A stretch of 64,000 nt of DNA from the human T2T-CHM13v2.0 reference genome, Homo sapiens (GCF_009914755.1 NC_060939.1); one strand, 5' to 3'. Positions 5,361 through 64,000 are shown, counted from the first letter of the stretch. A program made the numbers and translations. The notes: a model not told the origin generated them from the letters alone.

Positions 5361-5907
5361 GACTTTTTTATATTTATTTTCTACACCAATTACCTTGGCC
5401 ACATCCTCCAATACAGTGGTGAATAAAACTGTGAAAGTGATATCCTTCTCTTGTTTCTAATTTTACAAGAAAGTGTTTGAGCTTCTCAGAACATTTAGGA
5501 TGTCATGTGAGGTTTTCTGTGCTTTCATGATGAGGAAATTTTTCTTATTTGCCTAACTTGTTGCATGTTTTTATAATGAATGACATTTCACTTTAGCAGG
5601 TGCTTATTGCTCATCTTTTAAGATGGCCATGTGTATTGTGTCCCTTATCTCTTAATATAGTTTATGGCACTAATTCTTTTCGTATGTTGAACCAAATTTG
5701 CCTTTGTAAGATGTATACCTTCGTCAAAATTTATGAATTTTTACATGTCTGTTATTTGCTTTGATAGTATTTCCTTTAATTTTTGTGTTTATGTTCATAA
5801 GTCATATTGATCATAGTTTTTCTTCAGTAATTTTGTCTATCTATGGTATAAGGCTGATAATTCACATTGGAAATTGATCCATTCTTCACTGTTGTTCTTA
5901 CTGTTTT

Positions 5908-6718
5908 TTATGTGAAAGGTCTAAATTTATTTAGCACAAATAGAATTGAACACATAAAAAGGAGAAAAAAGTACACTTTTTCAAGCTAATTTTCAGACTT
6001 TGCAAACAATTATATTGTATAAGTGAATAAAACCAAATGAGAGTAGTAAAGAGATGTGATTGGGCTACATAGATGGAGATTTACAATACACTAGAAAGGG
6101 AGAGAGAAAGGTGGATGATAAATTACTCTTTTTAATATGATTTTCACTATTTTGCATATTTCTTTCTTTAAATACACTACCTACAAGTATAGAGAAAGAT
6201 GAAAATATGGGTTGACAAACAGGTGCTCATTAATTAGAAGAAATACAAGATTTAAATTCTGGTATTTCATTAAGGCCAATTTAGTTTGTATGCTTAGGAG
6301 ACCTAACCTGTAGACATTTGATGTGACACATTTTGTGAGCCTTCATAAATATCTATAAAAAATAGAAAATCAGAGTTTCTAAAAACTTAAAAATTGAACA
6401 AAACAAGGATTTAAATATTACTATTAAAGTTGTTACCTATTCCCAGATGAGGACTTAGAAAAACAAACAGTTGGCAAACCAGTGCAGCAGGTGACTTCCA
6501 TGAAGCCAGAGGCACACCCTGGGAACTGGGCTGTTGCTGGAGCCGACACTGCTGTGCTGCACATGTGGCTGCCACCAGTTTCCTCCCTCTCTGGGAACTG
6601 GAATTTGAAATGCAGGTGCTGATGGCTGATGGATGGAGGGACAAGAACACATTATCTCAAAATCCTTGGCTGGGTTGCTTGCTCCTCATTTCACTGCTAG
6701 ATGCCACAGGCTTGGGGT
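5908..6718 (-). pseudogene. 5'-truncated processed retrocopy (3'-UTR-like) of an unidentified transcript
   Basis: TSD TTACTGTTT at ~5899-5907 and ~6719-6727; minus-strand AATAAA (~5926-5931) about 15 nt before a short A-run; absent from paralogous positions in U2/U3/U4. Confidence 0.7.
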
Positions 6719-6815
6719 TTACTGTTTATTTGTTGAAAAATATATGATAAATTGGTATTAATTATTTGAAGATGTAAAATCATTCACTGGTGATGTCTTC
6801 TTGACCAAGTCAGGA

Positions 6816-7130
6816 ATTTTTTTTTTTTTTCAGAGACAGGGTCTCACTCCATCCAGGATTGAGCACAGTAGCATGAATGTAGCTCATTGCAGACTTGAAC
6901 TCCTGGGGTCAAGCAATCCTTTTGCCTCAGCCACTTGAGTAGCTGGGGCCACAGGCACATGCCACCATGTCTGGCTAATCTTTTTTCTTGTTTTCTTTTC
7001 TTTTTATTTTGGTAGAAACAGGTTCTCACTATGTTGCCCAAGCTGGTCCTGAACCCCTAGCCTCAAGTAATCCTCCTGCCTCAACCTACCAAAGCATTGG
7101 TATTACAAGTTTGACCCACCGTGATCAGTC
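6816..7130 (-). mobile_element. AluJ
   Basis: poly(T) followed by gagacagggtctcactc..ctcaagtaatcctcctgcctc; diverged. Confidence 0.85.
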
Positions 7131-7624
7131 CAGGGTAGGAAATGGAATCTTAACAACTATCACATGAACTTTGAGGGGATCCTTCTCTGGATGAGCCTTC
7201 AGTTGAGACCTCAGCCTTGGACATCATCTACATCTGGATTCCTGACCCAGAGCAACTGTAAGTAATGTATGTGTGGTTGTGAGCCACCGCACTATGTGGC
7301 AATTTGTTGTGCAGCAACTGATAACTAATACAAAAGATAGTACCTTTAATTTATACTACTACCCTGGATTAGATTCTGGAACAGAAAAATGGCATTACTA
7401 GAAAACCTGGTAAACTCAGAAGAAAGTCTGTAGTTCAGTTAATAGTTTTATACCACTATAAATTTATTAGTTTTCATAAATACACTATGGGTATATGAAT
7501 AAGATGTTAACATTCTAGTAAACTCCTGGGTATGTAAAACTAGCTGTACTATGTTTGCATCTTTATGTATATCAAAGTTATTTTAAAATGAAATCTTTGA
7601 TTGTTTATTTTTAATTAAAAAAGA

Positions 7625-7770
7625 CAGGCATGCATATGTTATCCCAGCTTCCGGGGAGGCTGACTTGGGAGGATTGCTTGAGCCCAGGAGTTCCAGGCTG
7701 AAGTGAGCCATGATTGTGTCACTGCACTCCAGCTTGGGAAACAGAGTGAGATCATGATTCAAAAAAAAAA
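7625..7770 (+). mobile_element. Alu monomer (FRAM/FLAM-like)
   Basis: ggaggattgcttgagcccaggag..actgcactccagc followed by an A tail. Confidence 0.75.
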
Positions 7771-8493
7771 TTGGCCTCAGGAGATGAATGGACATATAGG
7801 AAAAAAATTGCCAAGCAGATTTCCGCATTTATTTACCTTCCATACATACATCCATCTACTTCAGGAAGCCAGCATCAAACTCAAGGAACTCTTGTCCACA
7901 TTTGACCTCCCCATCACACTCTTTATTACCAAGTAACTCGTTTGAGTGTCAGTAACCTCTCTCTTTTCAGAGATATTTGCCTATGCCTCGCATACCCCAG
8001 AAAGGCCCATTTTCAGATATCATTTAGGAACATATCTACGGGTTCCCACTGAACATATTTTGGCAGACAAAGTTTCTGGATGCCAAAGACCAAGATTGAG
8101 GAATGTTAGTGACAAGAAATGTAAGTTATATTTTCATATTATGATTTTTTATTAATACAGGCTTAGTTTTCTAAAGATAATTCTGCCGTCAAGCCCTGTT
8201 GGAATTCTGTGATAATTTCTTTTCACTCCACGTTCTCCATCAGGAATTTTATGGAACCTTGTATTCTGTTGAGTAACAGAATTATATCAGCAATCCCAAA
8301 GTCACCAAATGGGCATCATCATGACAGCAGGTGGGTGGAATACAACATACATATATATGTATATATGATGGTTGGTGGTTTTGGCAGTTTCTACCTATCT
8401 GGACCTGGACAAAAAAATCTTTTCACACCAGATTTTTGGCAGCTGAGATTCAAAATAGGTTTTGCACAGGCATGGAAAACCTGATGCAGGCTA

Positions 8494-8905
<412 letters not shown>

Positions 8906-10174
8906 CAACATATCCCCAACCCTCCAGCAGTGATCTAAGAGATATACACAGGCTGAGTGGTGATTCTACATATGTGCTGGCTAAACAAAGAATCCCACAG
9001 CAGGAAGGACTCTCCACTCACCCCACACACAACTTCCTGTTCAACACGCTGCTGGACAGCACCAGGGTTGTTTCCAGGGACCATGCCTAAAAACCCACAA
9101 AGACATCAGACTTCATTCTGCACACCCATGGCCATGTATAATGACTTGTTTTTTGGTCTATAAACATGGGGACTATTGTCTACACCACAGTAATAGTGAC
9201 AGTGAGAAAATGAGCTCTTGTGACCTAGAAAATTGGAAGACACATTCAGCTTCATGGATGTCATTTCTCATTCTTAGATGAGGATAACTGTTACTTAGGT
9301 GGTGTTAATTGAGCATTTGTAATTCAAGAAAACTAACTTCTTTAAGCTCATACTTTATTACTTGAGACATGACAGCTTCATTTAAGGTTCCCATTTTAAA
9401 ACATGGTGAGTGTTTCCATTTATTTCATTTGAACTGGAGATACTATCATACTTAGGTGACTTGTCAAATCCCTTTTGTTCTTCATTTCAATGTATGTTTT
9501 CTAATCTATCATGATGAAGAGTGTGAAGATTGTCCTTCACCAAACAAGGAAGCAAGTAAAAAAAAAAAAGCTAGAATGGCAAACCATAATATAGACATAA
9601 GTAAATGCATTCAAGGTGTAACCCATCTCAATGTGGCATATCAGGGAGATGGAGACTGGAGAGATGAGGTTTAAAAGAAAACAGGCACTAAACTGAAAGC
9701 TGTGCTAACTGAAGTCACAGGCACAGATGACATCATGTTGTGCTCCAAGTTCCCAAACAACCTCTCTGACAGCACAAAAATTATGATTTCCCATAATATA
9801 CTAAGCTACCAGGTTTCAGAGTGGCTGTCCTGAATCATTGCAAACAAGCCGAATTCTTAGACCTCTTCACAAGGCAAGTACATAACACTCTTTCTCCATC
9901 CACACTTTAGACTGATTGGAAGTTAGAGTTTAATGGATGGGTGGCTCGTACAATTGAGACCATGATTTCATGTTCACTTTATTCAGTCTTCCTGAAGCCT
10001 TAAATCTCTGTCAGGGAAACATTCATGTAACTCATTACAATTCTACTTCCTCCTCAACAGATTTCTAGGACCATCATTTTTAAAATTATTTCTACATACG
10101 CAAAATAGGGATTTCATTACTCCACTAAAAGCTCTCCATTTTTAATAATTAGCATTCCATGGAGGGCAGGTCTT

Positions 10175-10603
10175 TGTAAACCTACCACCAAAATATGAGG
10201 AAGCTGAACAGCTGAAGATAGAGGCTGATATAACCAGTCCCTTAGAAAGAAACATTTAGTAGGGATTTATGAACAGATATTTGAGTCTCACATAGGACTT
10301 ATATACCATGGGGAAGGAATGTGTAGGAAAACTGAAGTCTACCTGTCAGGGAAAGGCAGAAATGCCATGTGAATCTAAGCACAGGATTTATAGTCATGGT
10401 GGTTCTGACCTAAGGGCAGGATTTACAGAAAAATAATGATTTTCACAAGGAACAGTAGACACAATAGAAATCTTATCCCCTAGTTTGCATATAAAGGAAA
10501 AAAATATTTATACCAAAAGCTTAGAGGCAGTCTCCAAACGGGGGTTAATCAGAAGTCAACATGATGAATTAGCTTTCAAGATTGAGTTGTTTTTGCCTCC
10601 ACT
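10175..10603 (-). mobile_element. Solo LTR, MER93/MER57-like (ERV1)
   Basis: Minus strand starts gtggaggcaaaaacaactcaatcttgaaagctaattcatcatgttgacttctgattaacccc. Confidence 0.6.
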
Positions 10604-11559
10604 GCTAGCTAGAGGGTAAATGCAGTTGGTCAGCTTATGTGAAAGTAGAAGTCTATTTCTTCAATAATATACTGTAATACAGAAGATGAGGTACCCCTTT
10701 TTCCAAGTAGTCATTGCCAGTCAAGGAGAAAAGTGCCATATTCCATTCCTCTTATGATACACATGTAACTGAGTGCAGGTCCGGCTGTTCTATGCATTCA
10801 AAAGCAATGACAAGGAGGACTTGCAGGGTGAAAGGAAAGTGACTTTATTTTTCAAATCCAGCAGTAGGGAAATGGCTGGATGACACCTGTATAAACCAGT
10901 TCACAAGGTTGGACTGAGGGCAGGTTTTTAAAGAAAGGGAAGCATAATGCATAACATGGGAGGCATGCAGGAGGTGTGCAGATTCAGGGAGTCTGTGTCT
11001 TACTCCCATGTGTATCTTGAGTTATGGTCCACCTGGAGCCACAGACTGATACCATCTTGATAGTGCCAGACCATAGGTATCCATCCAGAGGCAATCTTTA
11101 AGAGAGAGACAATACCACAGCTGGGCCTGTATGTTTGATTCATTTTAAATTAGCCTCTGGTATTTTTTGACAGGCATATAGTTAGATAATTATGCATTGT
11201 GTGAGTTTCGCCAGCATACAGTTAGATAAATGTGTATAAGGCATGGACATGTACAGTGGGAAACTGAATGGGGTGTGGTTCCAAAGTATATTTCAAGGTT
11301 CTACTTGAAGACTGAGGCAATGGTTTCTGCAGTTTGCTTCAAGGTTACATCCTGAGACTGGGAGGAAGGAAAAAAAAGAGAAAGGAAAAACTTAAGTGTA
11401 TTTTGAAGCAACATGACTCAATTACAATCCTGCACCATAAAAGACCATAGCATTTCCAAGGAACGTGGGCAACACAGTCCATCTAGTTTCTTCCTGCTGA
11501 GAAGGGGCACAGTTAGAGGGTATCAGATTGGAATCTGTTTACCTGGAGTTGGAAATATT

Positions 11560-12836
11560 CGTGGGTTCCCAGAATAATGTGAGAATGTTTTGGAGCATTA
11601 TAGTGTGGGGACCCAAAAGTTTCTGGGAAAGTTTTTCCTGCATCTCCATACAGATCTTGAAAAGCAACAAAAACTACAGCAACCAAACAGAACGGGGAGC
11701 AGAATACCAATTATACCATATATGAGAGTCTTCCATGGACATGGAAGTCGACTAAACCATGACATTGTGGGATCCTGGGAGAGGACATTTATAGCAGAAA
11801 TATGAGTATTCAGTGCATGCATACCTTGGATTATATCGTGAGAGTAATCTGGTGTATATACGCACCATTCAGTCTTAATGCACTGGTGTCACACTGGGCT
11901 GCAGTTAGGATATCTAAGGCCATAGGGTTCTACAGGGTCACTTGTCTAATCTACGAGTTCTTTCAGTGGGAAGGGTAATGTTGGGTTAGGTGTTATTACA
12001 GGCAGCAGCTCTATACTTAGGGTCTCTACTTATAATTCTACATCTATGTTTGCTGTCTGCGAGGAAAAGGCAGCTAGTGAGTAGAACCAACAGGGTGCCC
12101 ATTTTTGATGGTGTTGTCTGTCTTTCACATTTTCCCAGTGGTCAGGGAGAGAGTCCAGATGGGACAGGATGTGTCCTGGTAGGTAAGGGCACCCCCAGGT
12201 GTACCTGCCAATCCAGCTGTAAGGTAAGTAAGACCAGCTATGACTGCCTCACACCCATAGCTAACTCCAGGAGAAAGGATAGGCCCCATCATGTAGCTTG
12301 ATACTATTTTGCCATCCTAGCCACATATTATTATTCAGTTGATGGGTTTGGCCACATTACTAAGAGGTAACCATCCCTTAGCCTGGCTGCTAGTGTGGGG
12401 TGTGTTGCTCTTGTGTTTTTGGATGCGTAGAGGTGCCTGACCCATTGCCTGAATTTGCACCATCATCAGCCATCCTATGTTGTCATGTACAGCATAGTCT
12501 ATAGAGGGGGTGATATTAACCTGCTTACAAGCCACATGGAAGAAATGTTTCCAGGTTTCTCCAAAAGTGGAGCACTCATGGTGAGTGGTACTGTAATCAT
12601 AGATGGGAAATGGGTGAGAATTTTTACTCTTGTCCTATGTATAAACATAACTCCAAGTGCTCGAGGTGGTAGCTTGGATGTGCCATGGCAAGTCAGCAGT
12701 GGAGAAAGGGGTACCTCCCCCACAGACCCAGCAGTCTGTTTTGTTTTGGAGGAAAACCACTGTCTACACCCATTCGTGTAGTTTCAGCAAAGATCAAGTA
12801 TGTACTTATTACTCTAGAACTAATTGAGAACTTCAT
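11560..12836 (-). pseudogene. ERV env remnant
   Basis: Signal-peptide-like MKFSISSRVISTYLIFA; DCWVCG (CxxC, ~12718-12735); decayed ISD/CX6CC region LRQVTL*NP..LDILTAAQ..IKTEWCVY (~11850-11950); TM helix IYGIIGILLPVLFGCC. Confidence 0.85.
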
Positions 12837-12929
12837 GTTAACAAAAGTATATTGCTTATATCTCCTTCTTTTTCTTTTATTAATAACTTCAGATCTTTCC
12901 TTGGCGCACATAACCAGGTAGGCATCTGA

Positions 12930-15400
12930 GTGAAGCCCGCCTTTCAGTCTTTGAAGGGACTCAGCTCTTTGTACTATATCTCCTTTTTAGGAGGACTACA
13001 TTCCATCTTGGGATTGTTTGTTTGTAGTGCACAAGATGCATCCCTGTGTAATTTTCCGAGTGATGTTTTGAAAGTGTGGTCTACTGAGGTGTGGTTGTAC
13101 TAGGTTGGCGAGGACATCACTCCCATAGTGCATTCCTTTATGTAGATGTTTTGAGATTGGATAAACCAAGGCCTTGGGGTTTCATCATCCTGTAGGCGTT
13201 ATCTTATAGGTGTCAGTTTTCTAGGGGAATTGGAATCTCTTTTCTCAAACCCCTGGCTTGGGCACGTTTGGGATCTTGTTCAGTGTAATGAGGTTTAAAA
13301 TCTAGTAATTCCAAATGGAGTATTCATGTCCCAGGACCTGTGCCTCCCAAGCAGCTCATTTTGCAGCTTTGCCAGCTGCCTGGTTACCTTCGGTTGTGAA
13401 TTATGTCTCTGGTGTTGGGGAAGTGCATGATGGAAGCCTGGGCAGGCAAGGCAATTGCCTTTACTAGGTCCAGAATTTCTCTTGGGTGTTTAATGTCTGT
13501 ATTTTCTGATTTCAAGCAACCTCCTCTATGTTTCCAGATCACCCAATTGGCGTGCATTTCCAGGAATGCATATATGGAATCAGAATAAATCTTTACTCCC
13601 TTTTCCTGGGACAGTTCTAAAGACTCAGGTAAGAGCAATTAACTCAGCTCTTTGTGCGGAGGTAGCTGCAGGAAGGGTATGGACTACTATTACCCTTTTG
13701 GTAGTCACAGTGGCACATCCGGCTCTGTGCACATCTTTCATTAAGCTGCTCCCATCAGTGTAGTTCAAGTCCAGAGCACTCATTGTCTAGTTTGACAGGT
13801 TCAGCATGCTTGAATAAGCTGCATCAAGGATTTACAGTCATGCTTTAACCCAGGATTGTGTTCAGTGGCTGAGAGCAGTGTGGCAGGGTTTAGAGCCATG
13901 GTGGTTTGTAGGGTGATATTTGGATCATATAAGAGGATGGCCTGGTATCTGCCCACTCACCCCACAGTGAGCCAGTAGCCTCCCGTTTGTTCTAGCAGAG
14001 TCAGCACCTGATGGGGTACAAACAAGGTAACTGGCTGTCCCAGAGTAAATTGTTCTACTTCCTGTAGGACTTCACAGTGGGTGCTCTTGCCCAGAGGAAG
14101 GGGAGCCATCCCTTAATCTTTGGTGTAATTGTTTAGAGAAATAGGCCATGGATTGTGGGGCATCTCCCAGCATTTGCATTAGCACAACCCACACCTATGC
14201 TTTGTTTCTCTTGGATATAGAGTTTGAACAGCTTTTGGGAATTTGGTATCCCAGTGCAGGGGGTGATATCAGCTTTTCTTTGATGGTATAAAATGTTTGT
14301 TGACCTTTAGATGTCCAGAGAAGGGCCTCTGAGTCTAGTGAATCCTTTAAGGATTCATAAAGTGTTTTAGTCATTAGTCCAAACTTAGGAATCAAATCTG
14401 GCAGAAGCTAACCCTTTCTAAGAATCCCCATGGTTGCCCCCATTCTCTGGAGCTTTATGGCTGCTATTGCCTGTTTTTTGTTTTTTTTTTTTACCAGACC
14501 AGGCTCCTTTGGCCTTGCTTTAACCTAAAGCCAAGACAGGTTACTTTCTACTTACATATTTGGGGCTTCTTGGGAATACTTTGTATCCATATTGTACCAG
14601 GTGATTTAGAACTAAAATGACATCAGCTAAGCATTTCCTATAGTTGTGGCTGGCTATTAATTATCTATGTGTTGTAGCCAGGCTTCTTAATCTTGTTGTA
14701 GGTCTCCTAAGTCTTTTGCCAGTATTTCCCCAAAAATTGTTGGTGCATTTTTTAACACATTGAGACCCCACTGTCTAACAGTATTGAAAGGTTGTTTTAG
14801 TCTCTCGGTCCTGTCATTAAAAATAATAATGATAATTGTTGGGTCTTTTCTTCAATTGGAATGCAGAAGAAAACATCTTTCAGATCTAGCACTGAAAAGC
14901 ATTCATAATGTCTATATATAGCAGTCAGTAGAGTATCTGGGTTAGGCACCACTGGGTGAATATCCAAGACTATTTTATTAACGGTTCTCAGGTCTTGGGC
15001 AAATTGATATTTGTAGAAGTGTAGCTTCCTTACAGGCACGATAGGGCTATTATATGGGGATCTGCAAGGATGAATCAGTCCACTTCTCAAATTTTTGAAA
15101 GACAGGCTGTATTCCTTCTAAGGCTTCCTTTCTTAATGTATACTGATTTTTTTATTCGCCTCCTCCCCGCCGCCCAGGTCACAGTAGCCCCTTCTATTTT
15201 TTCTATATGCACTCACTGTATATTTCTTGTTTTTCCTGGGATTCCTTCTGCCTATTCACAATTACGCACTCTCTCATAGACTTCTGAGGGAGAATTCTTG
15301 TTTCTTCTTAAGGCAAGTGAGTAACATCTTAGTTGCAGTGCTTGCTTTAGCAGGACCTGCAGCCATAGTTGTTTCTCTGGGGATAAATTACTTGAGTATT
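12930..15400 (-). pseudogene. ERV pol remnant (RT, RNase H, integrase N-terminus only)
   Basis: SPYNSPIVPVRK..QDLRTVN..FSVLDLKDVFF (14797-15090); RNase H TDGS (~13750), [11 protein letters not shown] and IYSDSIYAF; HHCC-like stretch near 13030-13150. Confidence 0.9.
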
Positions 15401-15700
15401 TAATTTGCATAATGGGTCTTTTCCCAGCAAGGGAATTGGGCATTCTTACATATAGAAATAGCAGTGCCTTAGGTCCAAACTTTCTAGTTTGCATTCTAAA
15501 GGTTGTAGGAAAGCCTTTTGTTGCATTATTCTTGCAACTCCTATCACAGGTACAATCATTTTGGTGCTTTTTGCTCATAAAGTGTTAAAACTGAATAGTT
15601 TGCCCAGTATCAACCAGGAAATCAATTAACTTTTTCCTCACTGTCAGTTGTACCCAGGGTTCCTGTGGGGAAATTTTAATTGTCTCTGAGTGATTAAGGA
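15400..15700 (-). pseudogene. ERV protease remnant
   Basis: PQEPWVQLTV..IDFLVDTG active-site motif at ~15604-15670. Confidence 0.8.
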
Positions 15701-15749
15701 GAGTCCCCAGGCATCACTCTCTGTGGTCAGAGCAGTGACCCTGCTCCAT

Positions 15750-44332: not shown

Positions 44333-44632
<300 letters not shown>

Positions 44633-48852: not shown

Positions 48853-48903
<51 letters not shown>
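48682..48903 (+). mobile_element. FAM-like fossil Alu monomer with (TAAA)n tail (48851-48903)
   Basis: gaggctgtgtagtgtgctgtg..gtgaataaccagtgcactccagcctgggcaac, a 7SL-like insert typical of FAM. Confidence 0.7.
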
Positions 48904-48958
48904 GTTATAGAGATCATTCTTTGTATCTCTATCATTAGGGCTGAAATCCTCTAGATAA

Positions 48959-49257
<299 letters not shown>

Positions 49258-49399
49258 CTGAGATTTTTCTTTATCGTTGGAGAGCTGCCACCCCAGTGCA
49301 AACTTTCAAATAATGCCTTGCCAGTTTTACTTTCCCTCTCAAGGATTCCTGAAACTATAGTTTCTAAAATTATCTCACAGCATGTGTTTTATTTTTACT

Positions 49400-52900: not shown

Positions 52901-54182
52901 TGGTCAAGAGAGATATGGGTGAGAGATTGTTAGAAAGACAAATTTGGATAAACAGGAAAGAGCAAATTTAAATATACCATCTCATATCTTTTTAGTTAGT
53001 TTCCTAGTCCTCAGAATAGATCCTAGCTGTGTTTCATTCCAGGAGGTGTCACTGCAAATGAACTAGGCCCCCTTATGTGATTAAGGCAAAAAATATTTTT
53101 AATAACAGGCATTTGTATGGAAATAGAAAATAATAACAAAGGTTGATCTTGGGAACAATGCATCCAGATGTTAGATTCAAAGCATTTTTAAGTTGCAAAG
53201 GAGGATAGTGATGACAATCTCACATATTTCGCATCTGTATCTCAAGGGATAAGCTTCAGCCTGCAGGGCCTCAGGAAGAAGTTCGTAGCCATTTCATTGA
53301 GTCCAGGTCAGAAAAGTGGAAGAAAAATGTGAATGTGTTAGTTTGAGGACTTTAGCTCTGAGAGGTTTCAGGATTCAGTCCAAAGTGCAGAAAACAATAA
53401 AAAGCTCAAAAACAATAGACAAGACTAGAATGTAACAATAAGTGTGCTATAGTATTTTTCTGACATACAATCTTTTGCTCTCTAGTTCTCATTTTTTTAA
53501 GACATATGATAGTAGGACACATGTATTTGCAAAATACATTTTGTTATTATTATACTTAGCCTGACTATTTGTGTAAAGTTCAGCAAGAGTAATTATTTGC
53601 CGTATTAGCCCTTTCTAAATTGGGTTTGCTGGAACTTTGTTCCCTAAGGAATCTTGGATTGGACTTTTTTAAAGCCTTCAAGGGATGTATCTGTGCCTGC
53701 AAATACTTGTACAGATTGCTTGAATTTCTCTCTTCTTCAGCTCCCAAGATAATTTAGGAATCATAGGCCTGTCAGAATGTGACATTTTTTACTAACCACA
53801 GGTCAAGAACCCTGTACAAGGCCTGTGTAGACAGTTAGGAGGTCAGTTTCTTAAGGGGCTTTTATCAACTCTGTTAGTCAACTTTAATTCCTCCAGCTTG
53901 TCTGTTTGTATCTGAAAGTAGGTCATTCGACTGGTAACATAACCACAGCTTTGGTAAAATAATCAGTGTCTCTAATTGTGTTCTGTTACAAAAGAAATCA
54001 GATTCTTATTGTACTTATGTAAATAACTATATCGCCATAGCATGGAATACTCATAAATAGTTTTCAAATTCTGGAGAAATCAAGTAGAGAAAATGAAATA
54101 TCCTTCATCTTTTGTTCACAGGAATATACTTTACTCAACCATGAAAAGCTGTAAATAGCTGAAAAGAAAAATGTGGTCTTGA

Positions 54183-54485
54183 GGTCGGGCACGGTGGCTC
54201 ACGCCTGTAATCCCAGCACTTTGGGAGGCCGAGGCGGGTGGATCACGAGGTCAGGAGATCGAGACCATCCTGGCTAACACGGTGAAACCCCGTCTCTACT
54301 AAAAATACAAAAAATTAGCCAGGAGAGGTGGCAGGCGCCTGTAGTCCCAGCTACTCGGGAGGCTGAGCCAAGAGAATGGCATGAACCCCAGGGGGTGGAG
54401 CCTGCAGTGAGCCCAGATCGCGCCACTGCACTCCAGCCTGGGTGACATCGAGACTCAATCTCAAAAACAAAAATAAAAAAGAAAA
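54183..54485 (+). mobile_element. AluY, AluYe-like
   Basis: gagaggtggc and ggggtggagcctgcag variants; ~20-bp TSD aaaagaaaaatgtggtcttga. Confidence 0.85.
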
Positions 54486-54825
54486 AAGAAAAATGTGGTC
54501 TTGACTCTGAAAAACAACAAAAAGGATCAGCAGCATTTCCAGCAACAAGTCATAAAATGATTATTGTGGTCTTCTATTAGTTCAGTCCATGCAGTGAACT
54601 TTGTCTGACATTGGGCCTGCAGTCCCCATAAACATACCAGCTATCTCTGACAGTCCTGGAGGTTTGTTTGTTTGGTTTTGTTTTTTTCCTATTTCAATGC
54701 CACAATCTTTGGTTATCAGAAACCTGTATTCAAGAGAACATTTCAAAGAGCAAACACCTTTTGAATAGTTTAAAAAAAAAGAGCACAATAATCTGTGGAT
54801 GACAATAATCTCAGGACAGTCATTG

Positions 54826-55170
54826 TTTTATTAATTTTACTTTGATTTTGTTGAGACAGGGTCTGAAGCCATGCAGGCTGGAGTGCAGTGGCACAATTAT
54901 GGCTCACTGTAGCCTCACCTTCCTGGGATCAAGCAATCCTCTTTCTTCAGCCTCCAGAGGAGCTGGGACCACAGGCAAGTGCTACCACATCCAACTAATT
55001 TTTTGATTTTTTTGTAGAGAAAAGGTCTCACTATCTTCCTCAGGCTGATCTCAAACACCTGAGCTCAAGCAATCCTCCCAACTTAGCCACCTAAAGTTCT
55101 AGGATTACAGACATGAGCCACCGTGCCCAGTGAGGACATTACAGGCATGAGTCACTGTGTCCAATGAGGC
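54826..55170 (-). mobile_element. AluJ with tandemly duplicated 5' end
   Basis: attacag(a/g)catgag(c/t)cac(c/t)gtg(c/t)cca(g/a)tgagg occurs twice (55104-55170). Confidence 0.8.
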
Positions 55171-58100
55171 CATTGTTAAAGACACAATCGACAAAGAAAT
55201 CTGTTCATTTCTGTGGCACATAACAATTCAGCATAATAATAATAATTATGACTGATAACATATACTAAGACATATTAGAATTATAGGAACCATATAATTT
55301 TGGAATACATACTAATAACATATTTATATAAATATAACCCAAAGAAAGTTAAACATGATTTTATATTTGACAGTGTTTTCTGTAGGTTAATATACCAAAT
55401 AAGCCAAATATATCTCTTTTGGACTTCAGGGGACGTAATATTTAAAAGGCTAATGAGTTAAAATAAAAATTCTTAGTTTATAATTTTATTTTTCAAAGTG
55501 TGCAAATATTAAAGTTTTAAAACACTTCATATCACAAAATAGAATCCCAGATAACCACAAATCATTTGTTTAGCCAAAATGATAGCTCAAAAATTTAAAA
55601 AGGCAAAAGCCTTTATTCATTGGTAGAGAGGAGACTCAGCTCCCAAACAACAGGACCAAGTAACGACTGCATGAGGCCATCTGAATCTGTGTCTTCTCTC
55701 TCCCCTACTTTTTTCAGTTTATTTAAAAGACAAATAAAAAACATTTTATTATCTGTCAGTATTATACAAAAATATTGTTTAAAGAGAAAACCAAATTTTA
55801 CCTTTTATTAATGTTTTATTAGTGTTTTATTAATTAGTGTTTTATTAATGTCAAACACAATTTTTCATAAAACCTTATAAACAAATCTATCCAATCTAAA
55901 TCAGTTAGACCATAACTGTTTACAATTTTCTACTAAACAACTGATTAATGCTCCATGAAAACTCTGTTGATCACACCTAAGGGGGCAGATTCTGGGCCTG
56001 TATCACTGTGATTTTTACATTAATGATCATTCTGTAGAAAAACTAAGTAACCTGCTTCAAGTTTTGGCAAGTTGCTCACACTCACACACAGAACTTTCTT
56101 TACTAGACCAATCTTTTACAAACCTTTTATAACCTGCTTAAACCTTCAGTTTTCTCCTATTATTTTTTAACTTAAGACAATTTTTAAAACCTCTAATTTA
56201 GACAAGATTACTTTTTTAAACAAAAACAATATCTTCAGGTCTTTTTATAACTTTTTACAAAAACACATTTTATAATTTTTATATACCTTGAATGTCAATC
56301 TTTTCTCAGCAGTGTCAATCACATGTGTTACAATGTTAAATCTTCACAACTTTTATTTTTAGTGAAAGCAATTTTAATTTCGTACCAAGTGCAGAGCCTA
56401 GGACACAGGACAGAAATGAAGATAATGTCTGACTGTTTCCAACATAGCTCGGGGGCGTGGCTAACTCAGCACGTCCCCAGGCTTTACCTAGAAGCTGCTG
56501 GCTCTAATGCAGGCAGGTTGGACACTTACAAAAAGTCATAGATATTTGTAACCTTAAAACAGCAAAGAGAATATCTGACCTGCCTAATTTAGACCAAATG
56601 TCTAAATGTTGAAGAAATAATTTTATTGTACCAATAATCTTTAAAGCTATCTTTATCATTCAAAGATTATTAGAGTCATGTGAACAAAAAGCAGTTTAGT
56701 TAAATTTTTTCTGATAAAATATTTTATTTAAGTGCATATATACGCCCATTTATTAGAGCTCTTTTATATAGTTTGTCAGCAAAATATTGCATATATGGAG
56801 CATATAAATACACAGACATAGAGAAGCAGATCTGGTAGAGTTATATGGATTCTTCATTTGTCAGTTTTTAAGTTTTTCTTTTTCATTTTAGATCATCAGT
56901 CTCTTGATTACCTGTTCCCTGCCCTAAAAAGTTTTTAACCAGGCAGTTCCACACTTTTATTTTAAAGGGATAATTCTTAGGTGAAATAATTATAGAGAAT
57001 TTATATTTTATCTAAAGCAAGGAAAAATGTGGGGGTAAAAGTTCAGTGAGGATGGCCAGGAAAAGCAGACACTCTTACATGTGGAGATTTTCTTAAAGTT
57101 GTTAAGTTTTTAAATGGGATTATTGCCTTTGGGGTGGAACCTCTTAAGGAAAAGAACGAGGAAAGCATGCAGTTTCTAGGTCCTAGTAATCAGGCAGAGG
57201 TGGAAGGCAAAACAGATTCCCCTAAATGATGAATCTTATTTTTGTACTGAATCCTGGGTCCCCTAAAGAGGCAAACAATATGGCATTCTATGGCATGACA
57301 CAGTGCAATGCTTCCACAGTGTATTTCATTGTAAGGACATTTCCTCAAGGCCGCTGGACAACCCAGCACGCATCAGCCCACTCTGTAATCAGCTCATAAG
57401 AGCACATCCTTCTTATTTAAATGTACAAATAAAAGAGTATCACCCTGTAGTAATAATCACTTACTATAAGCAACTACCATTAGTCATTTCAAAAAGTATA
57501 TTTTTCATCTAGTTATTACACATCAAGGTTAAGTTTTTTTTCATAATGCAAAGTAATTTCAGGTCTCTGCAAGTCAAAAAGGTTAGATACAAGAGGAAGG
57601 AGGAACAGACAGGAGTAAATGGAGGATCAGAAAGAATTCCACTGAATGAGAAACTTTTACAGAGGGAGAGCAAAGGCTTTAAAATAGTATCTGTACACAT
57701 GTAGCTCAATATCAGCCTTAATCAAGTTGATTTTTGATTACAGAGATCTCCAAAGAAAATCTGCTGAAATCTTTTATTAATAGATTTTAGCCAGGACAAA
57801 TAGGTAGTATTTTTGGCTTTAAACTTTTCCAGAGGTAACTTCCCATGAGAAACTTATAAGCCTAACTAAGGTTATGACTTAACCATGGATGCATGAGGTG
57901 TCTCACAGAGATGGCAAGCAGTTTTTGCAAGATTGAGAATTTCCCCAAAGATAGCTTAGAAAGGAAAATTTAAGACAGAAAGTGAGAAGATGTCCATGGA
58001 GAAGAAAATCATCGAATGAATGGCAAACAGTCTCCAAATATCACACTAGAAAGGGCTTAGTGCTTGAGTTGAAAATCAAACCCAGGCTGCTGCAGTAAAA

Positions 58101-61100
58101 GGGAAAAACCTTAGTTACTGAGCTACAGCATGGGGCAGTTGCTGTTGGTCAGAAATAATGTAGGTCAGTCAGCTCCAAGCTTCAAGGATTGTAACTGCTC
58201 AAGAGAATCCTTAAAGCTAGCTGTGACATTATTATGTATCCTTTCAGACTGGCTGCCTGAACTGAATCCAGAAATTCCAACCCTGTGTATGTGGGAGAAC
58301 AAGGGACAGCATCCTCACATGGTTACTAAGTCAAGTTTTCAAGGACATAAAACAAGATAAGAGGGAAACTTCAACTTTTTTGTTTCAGGGAGGTGTAGCA
58401 AATTTTGTAACTAACAAGTCTGCAGGGCCAGCCCAAACAGTGGGCTTATAGGGATCCTAGGCCCCTTAGGTTCACAGTATGAATGCTGTCTCTAGGAACA
58501 ATTGAGGATGTTAGTAATCTTATGGCCTCTGGCTGTATGGCTCTTGAACCATATTTTCTAATCTTGTGGTTAATTTGTTGGTTTTACAAAGGTGATCTGG
58601 TCTCCAAGCAATTAAGGGATTTGTTTCAAGGAGGGGCTGTCATCTTTGTTTCAAAGTTAGGCTATAATTTTAATATTCCCTTTGTCCAGGAACAAACATG
58701 GGCAGCTTGGAGATTAAAGGCAAGATGTATTCAGTCAGGTCATCTCTCTTTTACAGTCATAATTTTCTCACTGTTAGAATTTTTTCAAAGGTGATTTCAG
58801 GATAAACATAATGTACACATTCCCATTCTATAAGAGAGAAATAGACACAAAGAAAACAGTAACAGCCCCTAAGTAAATTTGAAGTCCAGGAGGGCAAACA
58901 TTACATCTTAAAGCTGGAGAGCCTATTTTTTTTTTAACTCCTTAACACACTGAGGTGAGGGTTGGAGTGGCAAGCCCTAGGCAGTGTCACCCCTACGGTT
59001 CCCCTTGGCGAATCACCTGTGGGTGCTTGTACTGGTTGAAATTTTCCCAGGCAGGCATTGAATGCCACAGGGGACTTCACAATCCTGGGATCCTGGTATT
59101 GGCACCACTAGGCATTACCCATGTGGAACTCTCTGCAGTGATTTCACTGCTGTGGCTTCACTTGGCATTGCCCTGGTGGGGACTCTTTGCAGCAGCTCCA
59201 ACCCCACATATGTGTTTGGCATCCTTCTACTGGGGGCTCTCTGCAGTGGATCTAGCCGTGTGACAACTCTCTCTCTGGACTCCCAGGCTGTCAAAAAAAA
59301 TACTTTGAAATTTGTGGAGGCTGCCAAGCCATCATTTGTGCCTTAAGTGTAAGAAATACATTTATTTTCTTTATAAATTACCCAATATTTTGTATTCTGT
59401 TTTAAGCAACAAATAAGGGACTAATACAGAAAACTGGTAATGACAAGTAGGTTATTACTGAAAATGAATACCTGAAAATATGAAAGTGTCTTTCAAACTG
59501 GGTGATGGGCAGAGGCTAAAAGAATCTTGGAGAGGCAGACTAGTAAAAGCCTGTATTCTTGTGAGGGTTTAGAAGATAGGAAATATTTGGGAGTCCTCAG
59601 AGATTGATAAAGTGTTTGTGACCACACTGCTTCGGGAGAAATGGCGCCATATAATGCATGCTGGTTCAGAGCATATACAGCCTTCTAGAGAACCTTGCCC
59701 CACAGTTAACACAGTATTGTCATCTAGCAGGTGCTGGAACTGTAACTCCCAAAGGTCATTCCACCATTGTTTCAAGTGAGTTGCTTCAGGATTATAGGGA
59801 ACATGGTGAATTCACTGAAGTTTCTGAGCATGAGCTCATTTCTGCCCTTCTTTGTGTGTGAAGTGAGTTCCTTGTTCAGAAGCAATGCTGTGTGGAATAC
59901 CATGATGGTAGATAGACATTAAGTCCATGGGTGGTAGTTTCCACAGAATACTTGCATGCAAGGAAGTAAAATTTATAGACAGAGTAACTGTCTTACTATT
60001 CCAGGAAGAACTAAATGCTGCCCCTTCCCTGACGAAAGCTGCCCAATGTAATCAACCTACCACAAGGAAATTGGCAGATCTTCCTGGGGAATGGTGCCAT
60101 ATAGGGGCTCGGTGTTAGTTTCTGCTGCTGACAGTTGGAACACTCAGAGGGGTCTGTAACCTGGTTGGCCATGGTGAAAGGAATTCCAGATTGCTGTGTG
60201 TATGCAAAACCTCAGTCCCTACCACAGTGGCCACTTTATTCATAAGCCCGGTGACTGATGACATAGGTGCCTGGGAAAAGAGGCTGACTACTGTCAGAGA
60301 ATGCATGATCACATCCACCGGATGATTACAGTCCAGAAGAGCTATGGTAAGAGAGTGAGTCAGTTTTCCTCTGTTTCCCAGCACAGTTTACCCAATGTTC
60401 TCTTTAAGCTTTAAGTGGCTTTTTCTGCTTCTCCTGAGGCCTGGGGTCTCCCTGCTGTGTGGAGTTTTAAGGGGATTTCTAGGCCTTGGGCTACCTTTTG
60501 AGTAATTTAAGATGTAAAAGCTCTCCCATTGGCCAGGCACGGGTCAAGAGACAAATGCACTCTGGAGTTCCATTTGTTCTAAGCCTTTAAATCTCTGCCT
60601 GTATGTTAGTCCAAGGGAGATCAGGCATATCCAACTGGCTAAATAAGGGCCATCTTTTGATTCATGGTTCAGCCAACCAACCGTTAGGGCCCTTTCTAAT
60701 TTCCCATGCTGCAAAACTACAAGCAGTATCTTTTTTAATGAGTCCATATCAATAAATCTGGGTGATCCAACTTTATGTTTCCTCCACTATTATCCTAACT
60801 CTTAATACCCTTTTCCACACATGTTCTCCAGATTTCTGCTTGTATAAATTATAAAGTCAAATAGTTTTCTTGAACTGTCATGAACCTCCCATGGGCCAAA
60901 CTTTGTATACCATTTTTAAGGGCATTTTGAGGTTTGAGTCTACTTATAGGCCTAGAAGCAAAAAGGAGTGGTGGGTGTGGGGCCTTAGGAGAATCTGCAT
61001 TGCATTCCTCGGCAACTGCCTCAGGGGAGTCCATTAACTTTCCCTCAGGCAATGCTGGCGTAATCCCTTCAGACAGAGGTGGAACCACCTATACCAGTGT

Positions 61101-62216
61101 GGGTGAAGAGGCTACTGCCAAGAGGGTGTCAGTAGGGGGTCAGGTCTACTGGCAAAGAAGACATCGGAATTTCAGAGCTCAATGTCTCCAGCCTCAACAT
61201 GGTCTCTCAAAATGTTCCCAACCCACTCTACAGAGTTCCATTCTTCTCGGTACAGTGCTGTAAATTTACAGTAGGTACCTTGCCAGGCTGAAAGTTCAAC
61301 TTTCATAGTAACTCAGCCAACTGCACGGTGAAGGTTTGTGTTTGACTTCTAGCGTTTTCAGCCCCGTGACTATAGGAGATATAATTCTCACTCAGAGCGC
61401 TGTAAGAAGCTCTAAGGCTTTTTATGTGAAGCTGAATTTTGAAATTCTGAAATTTGAATCTCTTAGCTTATCTTTTTTATCGATCACTTTACTCATCAAT
61501 GCTAGAAGCAGAGGCCTTGATTTTCCACAGACGTTTAAAGATGTGCTGTCAGAGTCACCAAGTTCCTTGTCTTTTATCAGTGTTGATTAGGAGTGTCAAA
61601 GCTAGATGTTTGCATATCTCTTAAGCAGTTTATGACATGGACTAGCAATGTTTTCTGGACTATTAGAAATGGAGTCTTTAGCATTTTTACGTATCATCAG
61701 TTTAGAGACCTAAGTTTAGAAACCCCAAAACCAATGAAAGAAACTCGTTCCTAAAATTCCAGTTCTCTGCAATCATTCATGGTTTAAAAAATAAAACCTG
61801 TTTTAGCATTCTTCAGAGATACAGGACCAATAGGATACATATATAGGTAGACAGATGGGGGGGGCATTAATTAGATAAATTGGGTCACATTATGATGGAA
61901 GCCAAGACAGGTCTTCTGTAAGCTATAAACCATGGAGTACCAGTAGCATGGCTCATTCCAAGGCTGAAAGTATGAGAATGAGGAAAGCTGACAGTGTAAT
62001 TCTCAGTCTGAGGCCAAAGGCCTGAGAATGTGGAGGGATGCAGAAGTAAGTCCTGGAGTCCCAAGGAAGAGAGTCTGTGGTTAAGATGTCCAAGGGCAGG
62101 AGGCAGAGAGTGTATCAGCTCCAGGAGAGAGGGAGAGCAAAATCATTCTCATTACTTTTTCATTCTATCAGTACTCCCAGCCCACTGGATCGTGCCTACC
62201 CACATAGAGGGTGGAT

Positions 62217-62989
62217 TGTTATAGAATTCAGCTCAGGTCTGCTCACCCAGTACAGTAAGACTAGATACCTACACTGACATTTGCAGTGGGAGAAAAGGAG
62301 GTGTTTATCTGGACATTGTGAAGCAAGGCGGATGAGGCAGCTAATGCTTAAGTTCCCACTTCCCCAGTGGCTTGCAGGTAAGGGTTTTTTTAAAGCAGGG
62401 GTAAATTTCAGGAAAGCAGAAGTTACTGGCAAAATTATAAATCAGTACATGGAGTTTACACATTGGTTTTGTCCTGAAAAGTCACGATATTTTGAAGCAG
62501 GGGCTTACAGGCCATACATAGATTCAAGGGTTTTCTGATTTGTAATTGGTTAAAGAAAAGAGGGTTTGGTTTAAAATTTGGGGGTCGGCAGAAAAAAAAT
62601 GTTAGCTCTTTGGCTAATGGATTTGCCTCCCTCTAGGCCCCTCAGGAAGAAATTTAGTACAAAGAATGGCAGTCAGAATTCAGTTTTCAAGCCCCCTTAT
62701 CTGAGGTGTACTTGTCAGCAGATGCCTTTGGTGGGGGTCTAGGTTTATGAAAAATGATTGAGGAATGTATGTTAAGATGTGATCTTTAGAACAAAACAAA
62801 CATCTTCTGACTGTAACTTCCTTGGTGATTGTTTAGGCTACTATTACCTTCTTGCTTATCAAGTTCCTCATTTCTTTCTCAGTGCTAGCTAGGTACCAGG
62901 GATTTCCCTTGAAGGGACTCATGATTTTCCTTTATTTCCCTGCTTGGGGAAGCTACAGGCCCCTAACAAAGGGTCCCTGCTCCATCACA
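62217..62989 (-). mobile_element. Full-length MER39/MER34-like solo LTR inserted into the MLT2 LTR
   Basis: TG..CA ends; 4-bp TSD GGAT at 62213-62216 and 62990-62993; MLT2 sequence is continuous across it. Confidence 0.8.
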
Positions 62990-64000
62990 GGATCTTACCC
63001 ACTCTGTCTACCGACTCACATTTCAGACCTTTCTGGTGAAACCTCACCGACCCAGAAATAAAGCTTTGCCAGTGTTCTAGGTGTTCCTTAATACAGTTAG
63101 TTGACTCCTAAAAGTAAACATCACATTGGATTTTGCAGTGTTACCCAAGCAGGTTTCTCATGAGGAGTTCAAATTGCTGAGTTAAGGAAAAGCAACCATG
63201 ATTTCCACAGAGTCAAAGTTTGACTGAGAGGTAGTTACTGCTGAATATCTGTGCAGTTCCCACAGGGGACAGTGAGGTGAGATAAAGGTGGTATTCAGCT
63301 GTCTTATATGGAGTAGTCACCTTGAGCAGGTTTCATAAGGGGCTATGTTCAATGACCACCTTGAGGAACGTGGAGGCAGCCAGAAACTGAAAACTGTCAT
63401 GGGTTTCTAAACTCTATTTCTGGTATGAGAATGTCAAAACTATGTAGAAAATGAATGACCAGATGATATAAAATTAAAACAATTCATAGGAACATTTAAA
63501 ATAGGAATTCTAGTCGCCCAATAATAACTCTCTCTCTAATCCTGAGGTAGCAGGTAAATCGAGTTGTTCAACTAATTTGAAACTATAGTTAAGCATGTTT
63601 TCACAATAAGAGACCAGAATACATATGATGAGCCGACAAAATTTTGTACTGAGAAGGCGGCAGTCACAGAGGAAAAATAGTGTGTTCCATTTATTTTAAA
63701 AGGCATATTTTTTACATCTTGCAAATACAGATGAATCATAATATTGTAAAAGACTATTGGTTAGAAGACAGTCATAATGTGATCGACTTTGTGTGCACAC
63801 AAGTGAACTTGATGTAAAAAACTTCCATTTTCACATTCTGGTGGTATCTTTAACATCATAACTTGGAGAGGGACGTTAGTAGATGAGACACATAATCTAA
63901 CAGAAACTCTTATAGTTCTCTCACTACAAATATGGCAACAGCAAAGCTCCTAATTACCAGAGATGATGCTAGTGTAGAAAAAATCCATGGACAAGGTGAG
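62553..64000 (+). repeat. Right arm of inverted segmental duplication (pairs with 1463-2923; runs off the window)
   Basis: The last 20 nt of the window reverse-complement to 1463-1482. Confidence 0.95.

What the first reader, a model, noticed from the sequence alone, without database searches (positions are those of the whole stretch)
5361..64000. Hidden ancient tandem array of a ~7-8 kb non-coding unit (4 direct copies plus 1 inverted tail)
Seen: the same ordered series recurs at U1 5361-10765, U2 20720-28355, U3 28356-36350 and U4 43980-64000: old L1M fragment, MLT1 tail (gacccagagaaactgtgagta-like at ~7243, 24428, 33251, 47780), L1M 3' end, modules D, E, F, G/H, LTR, Tigger-like tail. Junctions between unrelated TEs are shared, so these are duplications and not independent insertions. 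Each AluJ is private to one unit. Inference: amplification came after the MLT1/L1M/MER74-like insertions and before the AluJ wave. A repeat annotation would show only scattered TEs. Old arrays often carry a payload (small RNA, alternative first exon, enhancer), but none is identified here.
Basis: partly seen in the sequence, partly recalled or inferred. Interest (0 to 1): 0.8.

Follow-up and report, generated by a model that had tools for sequence, protein, structure and literature searches.

The report
Fossil tandem array upstream of SNRPN
The window is part of a roughly one-megabase stretch between NDN and SNRPN on human chromosome 15 that was built long ago by copying one non-coding block of about 12 kb head to tail dozens of times, and the copies have since decayed with no sign of a conserved cargo.

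Summary
Four direct unit copies lie in the window at 5366-10766, 20629-28356, 28352-38223 and 42698-49906 (tail at 62517-64000), plus an inverted tail at 1138-2959. They are collinear at 59-71% identity.

- **Extent.** Whole-genome searches place each unit module at 32-34 places, all on C15:21.55-22.61 Mb. 53 of 54 and 38 of 39 are on the + strand.
- **Shared junctions.** Dispersed-repeat pieces sit at fixed unit positions between locus-specific flanks.
- **Alus.** All 13 Alu-like pieces are private to one copy.
- **Unit size.** The ancestral unit was about 11-12 kb or more, not 7-8 kb.
- **Layers.** K2P is about 0.43 for the original array, about 0.2 for a block duplication and 0.02-0.04 for recent duplications. 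ERV-like, L1 and Alu insertions fall between them.
- **Payload.** None found. Conservation is flat, Rfam gives 0 hits and there is no CpG island.

Most likely this is a neutrally decaying tandem amplification of early-eutherian age, now used for PWRN-type lncRNA exons. A link to SNRPN upstream exons remains open.

The parts
1138..2959 (-). Inverted copy of the unit's tail module. Its part 1463-2959 is a young inverted duplicate of 62517-64000.
   Evidence: 1138-1916 matches 36357-35577 at 62.4%, and 1463-2959 matches 64000-62517 at 91.9%; minus-strand matches to the tail of upstream units.
5366..10766 (+). U1, a partial unit covering U2 coordinates about 3063-6905 plus the start of the tail. 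It carries three private Alu pieces.
   Evidence: chain at 62.4% to U2. for the Alus.
20629..28356 (+). U2, the unit body used as reference. It carries one private Alu (26131-26430) and a younger dispersed repeat of about 420 bp (27730-28155).
   Evidence: One search shows the 420-bp repeat is absent from the 80-81% paralogs and present in the 94-96% ones.
28352..38223 (+). U3: body 28352-35477 (U2 coordinates 913-6949) followed by the tail module 35575-38223.
42698..43873 (+). Pre-unit module. In upstream units it lies directly before the next unit body.
   Evidence: matches at 66-67% to four upstream units, just ahead of their bodies.
43873..49906 (+). U4 body. It covers U2 coordinates 1-7728 but lacks about 24790-26992, and it carries three private Alus.
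62517..64000 (+). Tail module belonging to U4, separated from its body by about 12.6 kb of inserted sequence.
   Evidence: 35577-36036 matches 63545-63999 at 64.6%; 63125-64000 matches the tails of three upstream units.
10800..19030 (-). Interrupting insert between U1 and U2: an old ERV-like element that carries PWRN2. It is not part of the ancient unit.
   Evidence: no match to upstream units for 10001-18400; collinear dispersed copies at 66-75% on C14, C5, C12, C18 and C7; weak RVT_1 and RNase_H matches on the - strand, both below the curated cut-offs.
38224..42200 (.). Interrupting insert between the U3 tail and the pre-unit module: a piece of a dispersed ERV-like family.
   Evidence: collinear copies at 68-78% on many chromosomes; depth 0-1 against upstream units.
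51780..58800 (+). Interrupting insert between the U4 body and its tail: an ERV-like element with an LTR-like pair at 52159-52512 and 58465-58799.
   Evidence: collinear copies on C18, C8, C13, C17 and C4, and many solo hits to query bases about 1980-2700; the LTR pair is 75.7% identical.
2870..5387 (-). Younger L1 5' portion abutting the start of U1.
   Evidence: L1 ORF1 domains at 4473-4841 (E 2e-46) and the ORF2 endonuclease at 2945-4087.

Best explanation
The window is a piece of a fossil tandem array.

Shown: a non-coding block of at least about 11-12 kb was copied head to tail many times at one locus. The block had a body of about 7.7 kb, a tail and a pre-unit module. It was already a mosaic of a few interspersed-repeat pieces and unique sequence.

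Inferred: the mechanism was unequal crossing-over or replication-based tandem duplication, and the time was around the base of the eutherian radiation.

Shown: the copies then diverged to 62-70% identity. They were split by ERV-like, L1 and Alu insertions, trimmed by deletions such as the direct U2|U3 junction, and re-duplicated as multi-unit blocks at least twice (K2P about 0.2 and about 0.02-0.04).

Shown: the result fills C15:21.55-22.61 Mb of T2T-CHM13. This is the PWRN4-PWRN2-LOC105370733 lncRNA region that ends about 92 kb before SNURF exon 2. Nearly all units point the same way as SNURF-SNRPN.

Inferred: the array has no sequence-conserved cargo. It decays neutrally and works only as raw material. 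Its splice-site-like motifs and inserted repeats are picked up here and there as exons of long, weakly defined non-coding transcripts.
For: **Array is real and locus-specific**
- 54 of 55 matches of window 24250-25830 are on C15:21.55-22.55 Mb, and 53 of those 54 are +.
- 39 of 46 matches are on C15, 38 of them +. The 7 others cover only a 240-330 bp dispersed repeat.
- 33 of 47 matches are on C15, all +. The 14 others stay within the first 765 bases of the query.
- for the tail module, every match outside the locus lies within its Alu.
- 32, 34 and 25 places per module, and 43 merged places.

**True tandem order**
- Four contiguous near-full units lie upstream at 21612722-21684530, with periods of 15.4-21.3 kb.
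- Adjacent periods share 7.7-12.0 kb of collinear alignment.

**Layers**
- The distance matrix gives 0.38-0.52, 0.18-0.23 and 0.02-0.04.
- U2, U3 and U4 each pair with successive upstream copies at 21704210, 21708792 and 21712735. This shows duplication as a block.

**Order of events**
- Alus are private (0 of 13 shared).
- The ERV-like insert at 51780-58800 is absent from ancient paralogs but present in the 80% paralog.
- The 420-bp repeat is absent from the 80-81% paralogs and present in the 94-96% ones.

**No payload**
- Identity of 12 ancient copies to U2 is flat at 0.51-0.76 outside the Alu. The tail is 0.52-0.76.
- Across 8 ancient lineages, 25-column windows have mean 0.794, sd 0.049 and maximum 0.92. 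There is no outlier.
- Rfam at gathering threshold gives 0 matches.
- There is no CpG island and GC is 38.4%.
- No Pfam match falls in unit ORFs.

**Orientation and distance to SNURF:**

**Domain age from the literature:** the PWS-AS region was assembled 105-180 MYA in early eutherians (PMC1626109, passages).
Against: - **Dating is indirect.** It rests on distances from one 1.45 kb segment and on neutral-rate figures that I recall rather than measured. No non-human genome could be searched, so the early-eutherian age is unconfirmed.
- **Coverage is partial.** The rest is known only from search tables that score 37-40 best candidates per query. Copy counts are therefore lower bounds, and the distal third is sparsely sampled.
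- **Flat conservation does not exclude other functions.** The array could act through position, transcription itself, chromatin state or short degenerate motifs.
- **A splice-donor-like motif persists.** It is the donor of annotated exon 7016-7257. This is mild evidence for retained exon potential.
- **Annotated exons favour units.** All 5 window exons of the listed LOC105370733 transcript fall inside U1 or U2.
Confidence: 0.7

Rival explanations
1. The array carries a working cargo. Each unit is, or once was, a weak alternative promoter and first-exon cassette of the SNURF-SNRPN upstream type (human u1A/u1B and PWRN1 exons, mouse U1-U9). Amplification would then multiply the start sites for transcription that runs towards and through the PWS imprinting centre.
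For: - Units point the same way as SNURF (+).
- The most distal unit pieces (22552448-22552924; 22604734-22606314) lie about 92-146 kb before SNURF exon 2. This is the zone where upstream SNRPN exons are described (PMC12229668 passages; PMC3248558 passages).
- Mouse has nine U exons spread over more than 580 kb upstream of Snrpn (PMC3248558).
- The title of Farber et al. 1999 says the IC region underwent multiple duplication events. I saw only the reference-list entry.
- A donor-like motif is kept in 5-6 of 8 ancient lineages and is used by exon 7016-7257.
- A + strand lncRNA spans 440 kb of the array (hub annotation).
Against: - No block is conserved above background in 8 ancient lineages.
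- There is no CpG island.
- The donor motif is lost in 2-3 lineages. It also occurs with 1 mismatch in a non-unit minus-strand copy at 21772915, so it may simply be a well-kept piece of a dispersed repeat.
- Annotated exons in U1 and U2 sit at different unit coordinates.
- The positions of u1A, u1B and PWRN1 exons in unit coordinates could not be obtained.
Confidence: 0.2
2. The amplification is much younger, within primates only. It looks old because the locus mutates fast or because local alignments understate identity.
For: - No cross-species data were available.
- NPAP1 in the same interval is primate-specific (PMC3942032 passages).
- The locus clearly kept duplicating into recent times (K2P 0.02-0.04).
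Against: - All 13 Alu pieces post-date the ancient layer.
- An ERV-like insert whose LTR-like ends are only 75.7% identical also post-dates it.
- Ancient distances (0.38-0.52) are about twice the mid layer.
Confidence: 0.08
3. There was no duplication. The similarity comes from independent copies of common interspersed repeats, or from one long dispersed element that happened to insert several times.
For: - Parts of the unit are dispersed repeats.
- Identity of unit copies (65-69%) is no higher than that of the best dispersed copies of the same repeat piece (67-70%).
Against: - 54 of 55, 39 of 46 and 33 of 47 matches lie in one 1.06 Mb interval, almost all +.
- Alignments run through the edges of the dispersed pieces into locus-specific sequence only on chr15.
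- Whole periods of 15-21 kb are collinear.
Confidence: 0.02

Closest known systems
SNORD116 and SNORD115 tandem arrays in the same imprinted domain
   Same: Both are locus-specific head-to-tail amplifications of a non-coding unit within the eutherian PWS-AS domain, transcribed in the SNRPN direction. PMC7536080 (passages) gives about 30 and 45 copies.
   Different: Those units are small and each keeps a conserved snoRNA. Here the unit is about 11-12 kb or more, Rfam finds nothing and no block is conserved. The copies are far more diverged.
Alternative upstream exons of SNURF-SNRPN (human u1A/u1B, mouse U1-U9)
   Same: Both are repeated elements spread over hundreds of kb upstream of SNRPN in its orientation. 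Mouse U1-U9 span more than 580 kb (PMC3248558). The distal array pieces lie 92-146 kb before SNURF exon 2.
   Different: Homology between those exons and any unit position was not tested because neither exon coordinates nor a mouse genome were available. No conserved exon-like block was seen.
Segmental duplications (1 kb or more, 90% identity or more; definition recalled)
   Same: The youngest layer meets this definition, with 93-97% paralogs of window parts at about +75, +216 and +388 kb and elsewhere.
   Different: Identity-based duplication tracks would therefore not list it.
Macrosatellites and the composite-element arrays described for the T2T assembly (recalled, no paper read here)
   Same: Both have kilobase-scale units made partly of transposable-element pieces, arranged head to tail at one locus.
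   Different: Those arrays are kept similar by ongoing exchange. This one shows no homogenisation of its old layer (K2P 0.38-0.52) and is broken up by later insertions.

Membership tests
Tandem repeat array (macrosatellite-like) | Copies lie head to tail in one orientation at one locus | tested here: met
   53 of 54, 38 of 39 and 33 of 33 chr15 matches are on the + strand. Depth on + is 4-17 against 0-1 on -.
Tandem repeat array (macrosatellite-like) | Contiguous units with a recurring period | tested here: met
   Four contiguous upstream periods of 15.4-21.3 kb share 7.7-12.0 kb of collinear alignment. In the window, U2|U3 are adjacent and U3-to-U4 is one period with an insert.
Tandem repeat array (macrosatellite-like) | High identity between copies, kept by homogenisation | tested here: not met
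   The ancient layer is at 62-70% identity, K2P 0.38-0.52.
Segmental duplication (1 kb or more, 90% or more; recalled definition) | Identity of at least 90% over at least 1 kb | tested here: not met
   Not met by the layer in the finding (59-71%). Met only by the later layer (93-97%).
Independent interspersed repeats | Copies scattered over the genome in both orientations | tested here: not met
   Only short sub-pieces are dispersed: query bases 1-765 and 958-1283. The rest is confined to C15:21.55-22.61 Mb.
snoRNA or small-RNA host array (SNORD116/115 type) | A conserved small RNA in each unit | tested here: not met
   Rfam at gathering threshold gives 0 matches in 64 kb. No conserved block in 8 lineages, with a maximum of 0.92 against a mean of 0.794 and sd of 0.049.
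SNRPN upstream-exon repeat (u1A/u1B, mouse U1-U9) | Lies upstream of SNRPN in the same orientation | tested here: met
   SNURF exons are at C15:22698777 and 22704589 on the + strand. The array ends at 22606314.
SNRPN upstream-exon repeat (u1A/u1B, mouse U1-U9) | Units carry homologous exons that splice to SNRPN exon 2 | not testable with these tools
   No exon coordinates outside the window, no transcript data and no mouse genome were available. Farber 1999, Wawrzik 2009 and Landers 2004 are not held.
Named TE families in the unit (L1M, MLT1, MER74, Tigger, AluJ) | Match to the family consensus | not testable with these tools
   No repeat library is on hand. Only 'dispersed' against 'locus-specific' could be shown. 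Alu-like pieces were found by similarity to one window Alu.

The most novel reading that the evidence does not exclude
The array is the human remnant of an early-eutherian repeat that also gave rise to the mouse Snrpn U1-U9 exons. On this reading one ancestral unit carried a weak promoter and splice donor. Its amplification, soon after the PWS-AS domain was assembled, created a redundant battery of upstream start sites. Their transcription through the imprinting centre sets the maternal mark in oocytes. PWRN1-4, LOC105370733 and u1A/u1B would all be surviving members.
Probability: 0.18. Interest if true: 0.75.

Novelty: new member of a known kind. Interest (0 to 1): 0.5.

Why it matters
The roughly 1 Mb between NDN and SNRPN is usually drawn as an empty stretch with a few poorly understood PWRN lncRNAs. 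This work suggests several consequences.

- **One origin for the interval.** Nearly all of it descends from one amplified block. That explains why its transcripts are long, repetitive and hard to map.
- **PWRN2 mapping.** PWRN2 has three full-length (or nearly so) copies and one partial copy at 93-95% identity. This matters for read mapping, probes and CNV calling in a clinical deletion region.
- **A testable hypothesis.** The repeated upstream exons of SNRPN in mouse and human may share this origin. If so, the array's origin would tie into how the maternal imprint is set.
- **A gap in standard annotation.** Identity-threshold duplication tracks would not report amplifications at 62-70% identity. 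This follows from the recalled 90% threshold and was not checked here.

I found no description of the array in print. The papers most likely to bear on it (Farber 1999, Buiting 2007, Wawrzik 2009, Landers 2004) could not be read.

Tried and rejected
- **Fetching the whole locus.** I tried to fetch all of 21.58-22.64 Mb for a full dot-plot. Only the first 200 kb was granted.
- **Payload searches.** All of the following were negative:
  - 100-bp identity profile of the body and of the tail;
  - 25-column scan over 8 lineages;
  - Rfam and CpG islands;
  - Pfam on 10 and then 75 open frames. These hit only the L1 and, weakly, the ERV-like insert.
- **Exon 7971-8120 as a conserved unit exon.** It maps to a modest identity peak. 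The alignment shows that its GTAAGT donor is peculiar to U1, so I rejected it as an ancestral exon.
It is kept in most lineages but lost in 2-3. It is also present in a non-unit copy, so I do not count it as a payload.
- **Locating u1A/u1B through primers or guide sequences in open papers.** No usable sequence was found.
- **A single long TE as the explanation.** Rejected because the matches are confined to chr15.
Full report

A blastn self-comparison of the window, and a more sensitive one (plotted), show + strand off-diagonals that link four stretches in the same order.
- U1 5366-10766 aligns in five to seven collinear pieces to U2 23691-27140 and to U3 32520-35738.
- U2 21541-27577 aligns to U3 28352-35477. 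One single 2.4 kb piece (23464-25825 against 32290-34594) is at 64% identity.
- U2 20629-28356 aligns to U4 43873-49757.
- U3 aligns to U4.
- Identities are 59-71% and E-values reach 1e-124 and lower.

None is expected from shuffles.
- The inverted tail is there. 1138-1916 matches 36357-35577, and 1463-2959 matches 64000-62517 at 92%.

**2. Duplication or independent repeats?**

The window's own genome could be searched. The window is C15:21886001-21950000 of G000.
- **Window 24250-25830.** The search gave 55 matches. 54 lie on C15 between 21.55 and 22.55 Mb, and 53 of those are on the + strand. One is a 165-bp hit on C7.
- **Window 21022-22453.** The search gave 46 matches, 39 on C15 and 38 of those +. 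The 7 elsewhere cover only query bases 958-1283, a small dispersed repeat. Chr15 copies cross both of its edges.
- **Window 23482-25326.** The search gave 47 matches, 33 on C15 and all +. The 14 elsewhere, on both strands, stay within query bases 1-765. Chr15 copies continue to base 1845.
- **Tail module 35575-38223.** It behaves the same way. Every match outside the locus falls within its Alu.

Dispersed pieces sit at fixed places between locus-specific flanks in dozens of copies.

In the DNA I held, every 100-bp bin of U2 outside three dispersed repeats has 4-17 + strand matches against 0-1 on the - strand. Binomial values for the strand counts are 6e-15, 1.5e-10 and 8e-23.

These searches score only the 37-40 best candidates each, so all counts are lower bounds. 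I could not name the repeat families because no repeat library is available.

**3. Extent and unit**

Clustering the tables gives 32, 34 and 25 places for the three body modules. Merged, they make 43 places from 21549986 to 22605782. A few copies are inverted, at 21547372-21551249 and 21784481-21792980.

I fetched 200 kb upstream.

In that stretch four near-complete units follow one another at 21612722, 21634020, 21653126 and 21669137. Partial ones run up to 21715008.
- The self-plot has 202 + against 50 - pieces of 450 bp or more. Its diagonals run through whole periods.
- Adjacent periods of 15.4-21.3 kb share 7.7-12.0 kb of collinear alignment.

The ancestral unit was therefore at least about 11-12 kb. 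It consisted of the 7.7 kb body, a tail (window 35575-38223) and a pre-unit module (42698-43873). The direct U2|U3 junction lacks these and the first 912 bases of the next body, so it is a later loss. The +388 kb paralog shares that junction.

**4. Layers and order of events**

I used a 1.45 kb segment from 14 copies. It gives three layers of Kimura distance.
- **0.38-0.52** between ancient lineages.
- **0.18-0.23** for a middle layer. U2, U3 and U4 pair with successive upstream copies at 21704210, 21708792 and 21712735, so at least three units were copied as a block. The flank 49261-54157 continues the match at 78-79%.
- **0.02-0.04** for recent copies. Window parts have 93-97% paralogs at about +75, +216 and +388 kb and elsewhere.

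Insertions fall between the layers.
- All 13 Alu-like pieces are private to one ancient copy. The U2 Alu lies within the single unbroken alignment (89.6% over that length) to L002, the paralog matched at 94-96%.
- The ERV-like element at 51780-58800 is absent from ancient paralogs. It is present in the 80% paralog, and its LTR-like ends are 75.7% identical.
- The 420-bp repeat at 27730-28155 is absent from the 80-81% paralogs and present in the 94-96% ones.

I recall human-lineage neutral divergence since the human-mouse split as about 0.17 per site; this was not checked here. Half of 0.43 per lineage then puts the first amplification somewhat before that split, roughly 100 Myr ago. That would fit the assembly of the PWS-AS domain in early eutherians, dated 105-180 MYA (PMC1626109, passages). 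This dating is inference. No other mammal could be searched.

**5. Is there a cargo?**

I found none.
- Identity of 12 ancient copies to U2 in 100-bp windows is 0.51-0.76 outside the Alu, with a mean of 0.669.
- The tail and pre-unit modules give 0.52-0.76.
- In block alignments of 8 ancient lineages, 25-column windows have a mean majority fraction of 0.794, sd 0.049 and maximum 0.92. There are no outliers.
- Rfam at gathering threshold finds nothing in the window.
- No window reaches CpG-island criteria, and GC is 38.4%.
- Pfam hits only the young L1 at 2870-5387 and, weakly, the ERV-like insert.

Against a purely neutral view:
- All five window exons of the listed LOC105370733 transcript lie in U1 or U2, at different unit coordinates.
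- A GT(A/G)AGT-type site is kept there in 5-6 of 8 ancient lineages.
- However, it is lost in the others, and the motif also occurs in a non-unit minus-strand copy. It may just be a well-kept part of a dispersed repeat.
- The donor of exon 7971-8120 is peculiar to U1.

**6. Setting**

SNURF exons 2 and 3 are at C15:22698777 and 22704589 on the + strand. The units therefore point towards SNRPN. The last detected pieces (22552448, 22604734-22606314) lie 92-146 kb before SNURF exon 2.

That is the zone where upstream SNRPN start sites u1A and u1B are described (PMC12229668, passages). Mouse has nine U exons over more than 580 kb upstream of Snrpn (PMC3248558, passages). The title of Farber et al. 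1999 speaks of multiple duplication events in the IC region, but I saw only the reference entry.

Whether those exons sit at a common unit position could not be tested.

**7. Explanation and verdict**

The best reading is an old tandem amplification by unequal exchange. It was followed by neutral decay, insertions and later block duplications. The decayed copies supply occasional exons for PWRN-type lncRNAs.

The main rival is a repeated promoter and first-exon cassette related to the SNRPN upstream exons. I put it at about 0.2. Independent insertion is excluded.

Seven literature searches and passages of nine papers gave no description of this array. Four likely sources were not held. No supplements were consulted.

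I file it as a new member of a known kind, a fossil tandem duplication array. It is of moderate interest because of where it lies.

Noticed in passing
window 10800-19030 (PWRN2 at 12852-18023, - strand): PWRN2 lies inside an old ERV-like element on the same strand. Collinear dispersed copies at 66-75% exist on C14, C5, C12, C18 and C7. Weak RVT_1 (14800-15117) and RNase_H (13387-13638) remnants fall inside its long exon, both below Pfam cut-offs. The block has 93-95% paralogs at C15:21971910, 22113120 and 22285048, plus a partial one at 22075987. PWRN2 reads and probes can therefore multi-map.
   Followed up: partly
window 1463-2959 and 62517-64000: An inverted pair at 92% identity brackets about 59.6 kb of the window. 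Pairs like this can mediate inversion by recombination between the arms. Whether it is polymorphic was not tested.
   Followed up: no
window 2870-5387 (- strand): This is the 5' part of a fairly young L1. It has clear ORF1 domains (E 2e-46) and the ORF2 endonuclease, but lacks the rest of ORF2. It ends next to the boundary of the inverted duplicate at about 2959, so the 3' part may have been lost in that rearrangement.
   Followed up: partly
window 51780-58800: An ERV-like element with an LTR-like pair (52159-52512 and 58465-58799, 75.7% identical) separates the U4 body from its tail. It is shared with the 80% paralog at C15:21715711-21719639. That dates it between the first amplification and the middle block duplication.
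   Followed up: partly
window 38224-42200 and 11450-12900: Both stretches hit the same dispersed loci (for example C3:129978457-129984362, C14:85907729-85912836 and C16:81789230-81795264). They are therefore pieces of one ERV-like family, or of two related ones, inserted at two places in the array.
   Followed up: no
window 7016-7257, 7624-7747, 27120-27823: Annotated lncRNA exons draw on inserted repeats. The acceptor of exon 7016-7257 lies in an Alu (6817-7120). Exon 7624-7747 overlaps an Alu fragment (7642-7770). Exon 27120-27823 runs into the young 420-bp dispersed repeat (27730-28155).
   Followed up: partly
window 20905-25378 against L-held C15:21685057-21687638 and 21704158-21705988: U2 is a mosaic with respect to the middle layer. 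Its 5' half is 77% identical to one upstream copy. Its 3' half is 75-80% identical to another copy about 17 kb further on. The direct upstream counterpart of the 5' half is only 64% identical. This points to rearrangement or exchange between copies.
   Followed up: no
window 49800-55285 against C15:21879826-21884954: A 95% paralog of this stretch lies only about 1-6 kb before the window's start. The recent duplications are therefore interleaved at short range as well as at the +75, +216 and +388 kb offsets.
   Followed up: no
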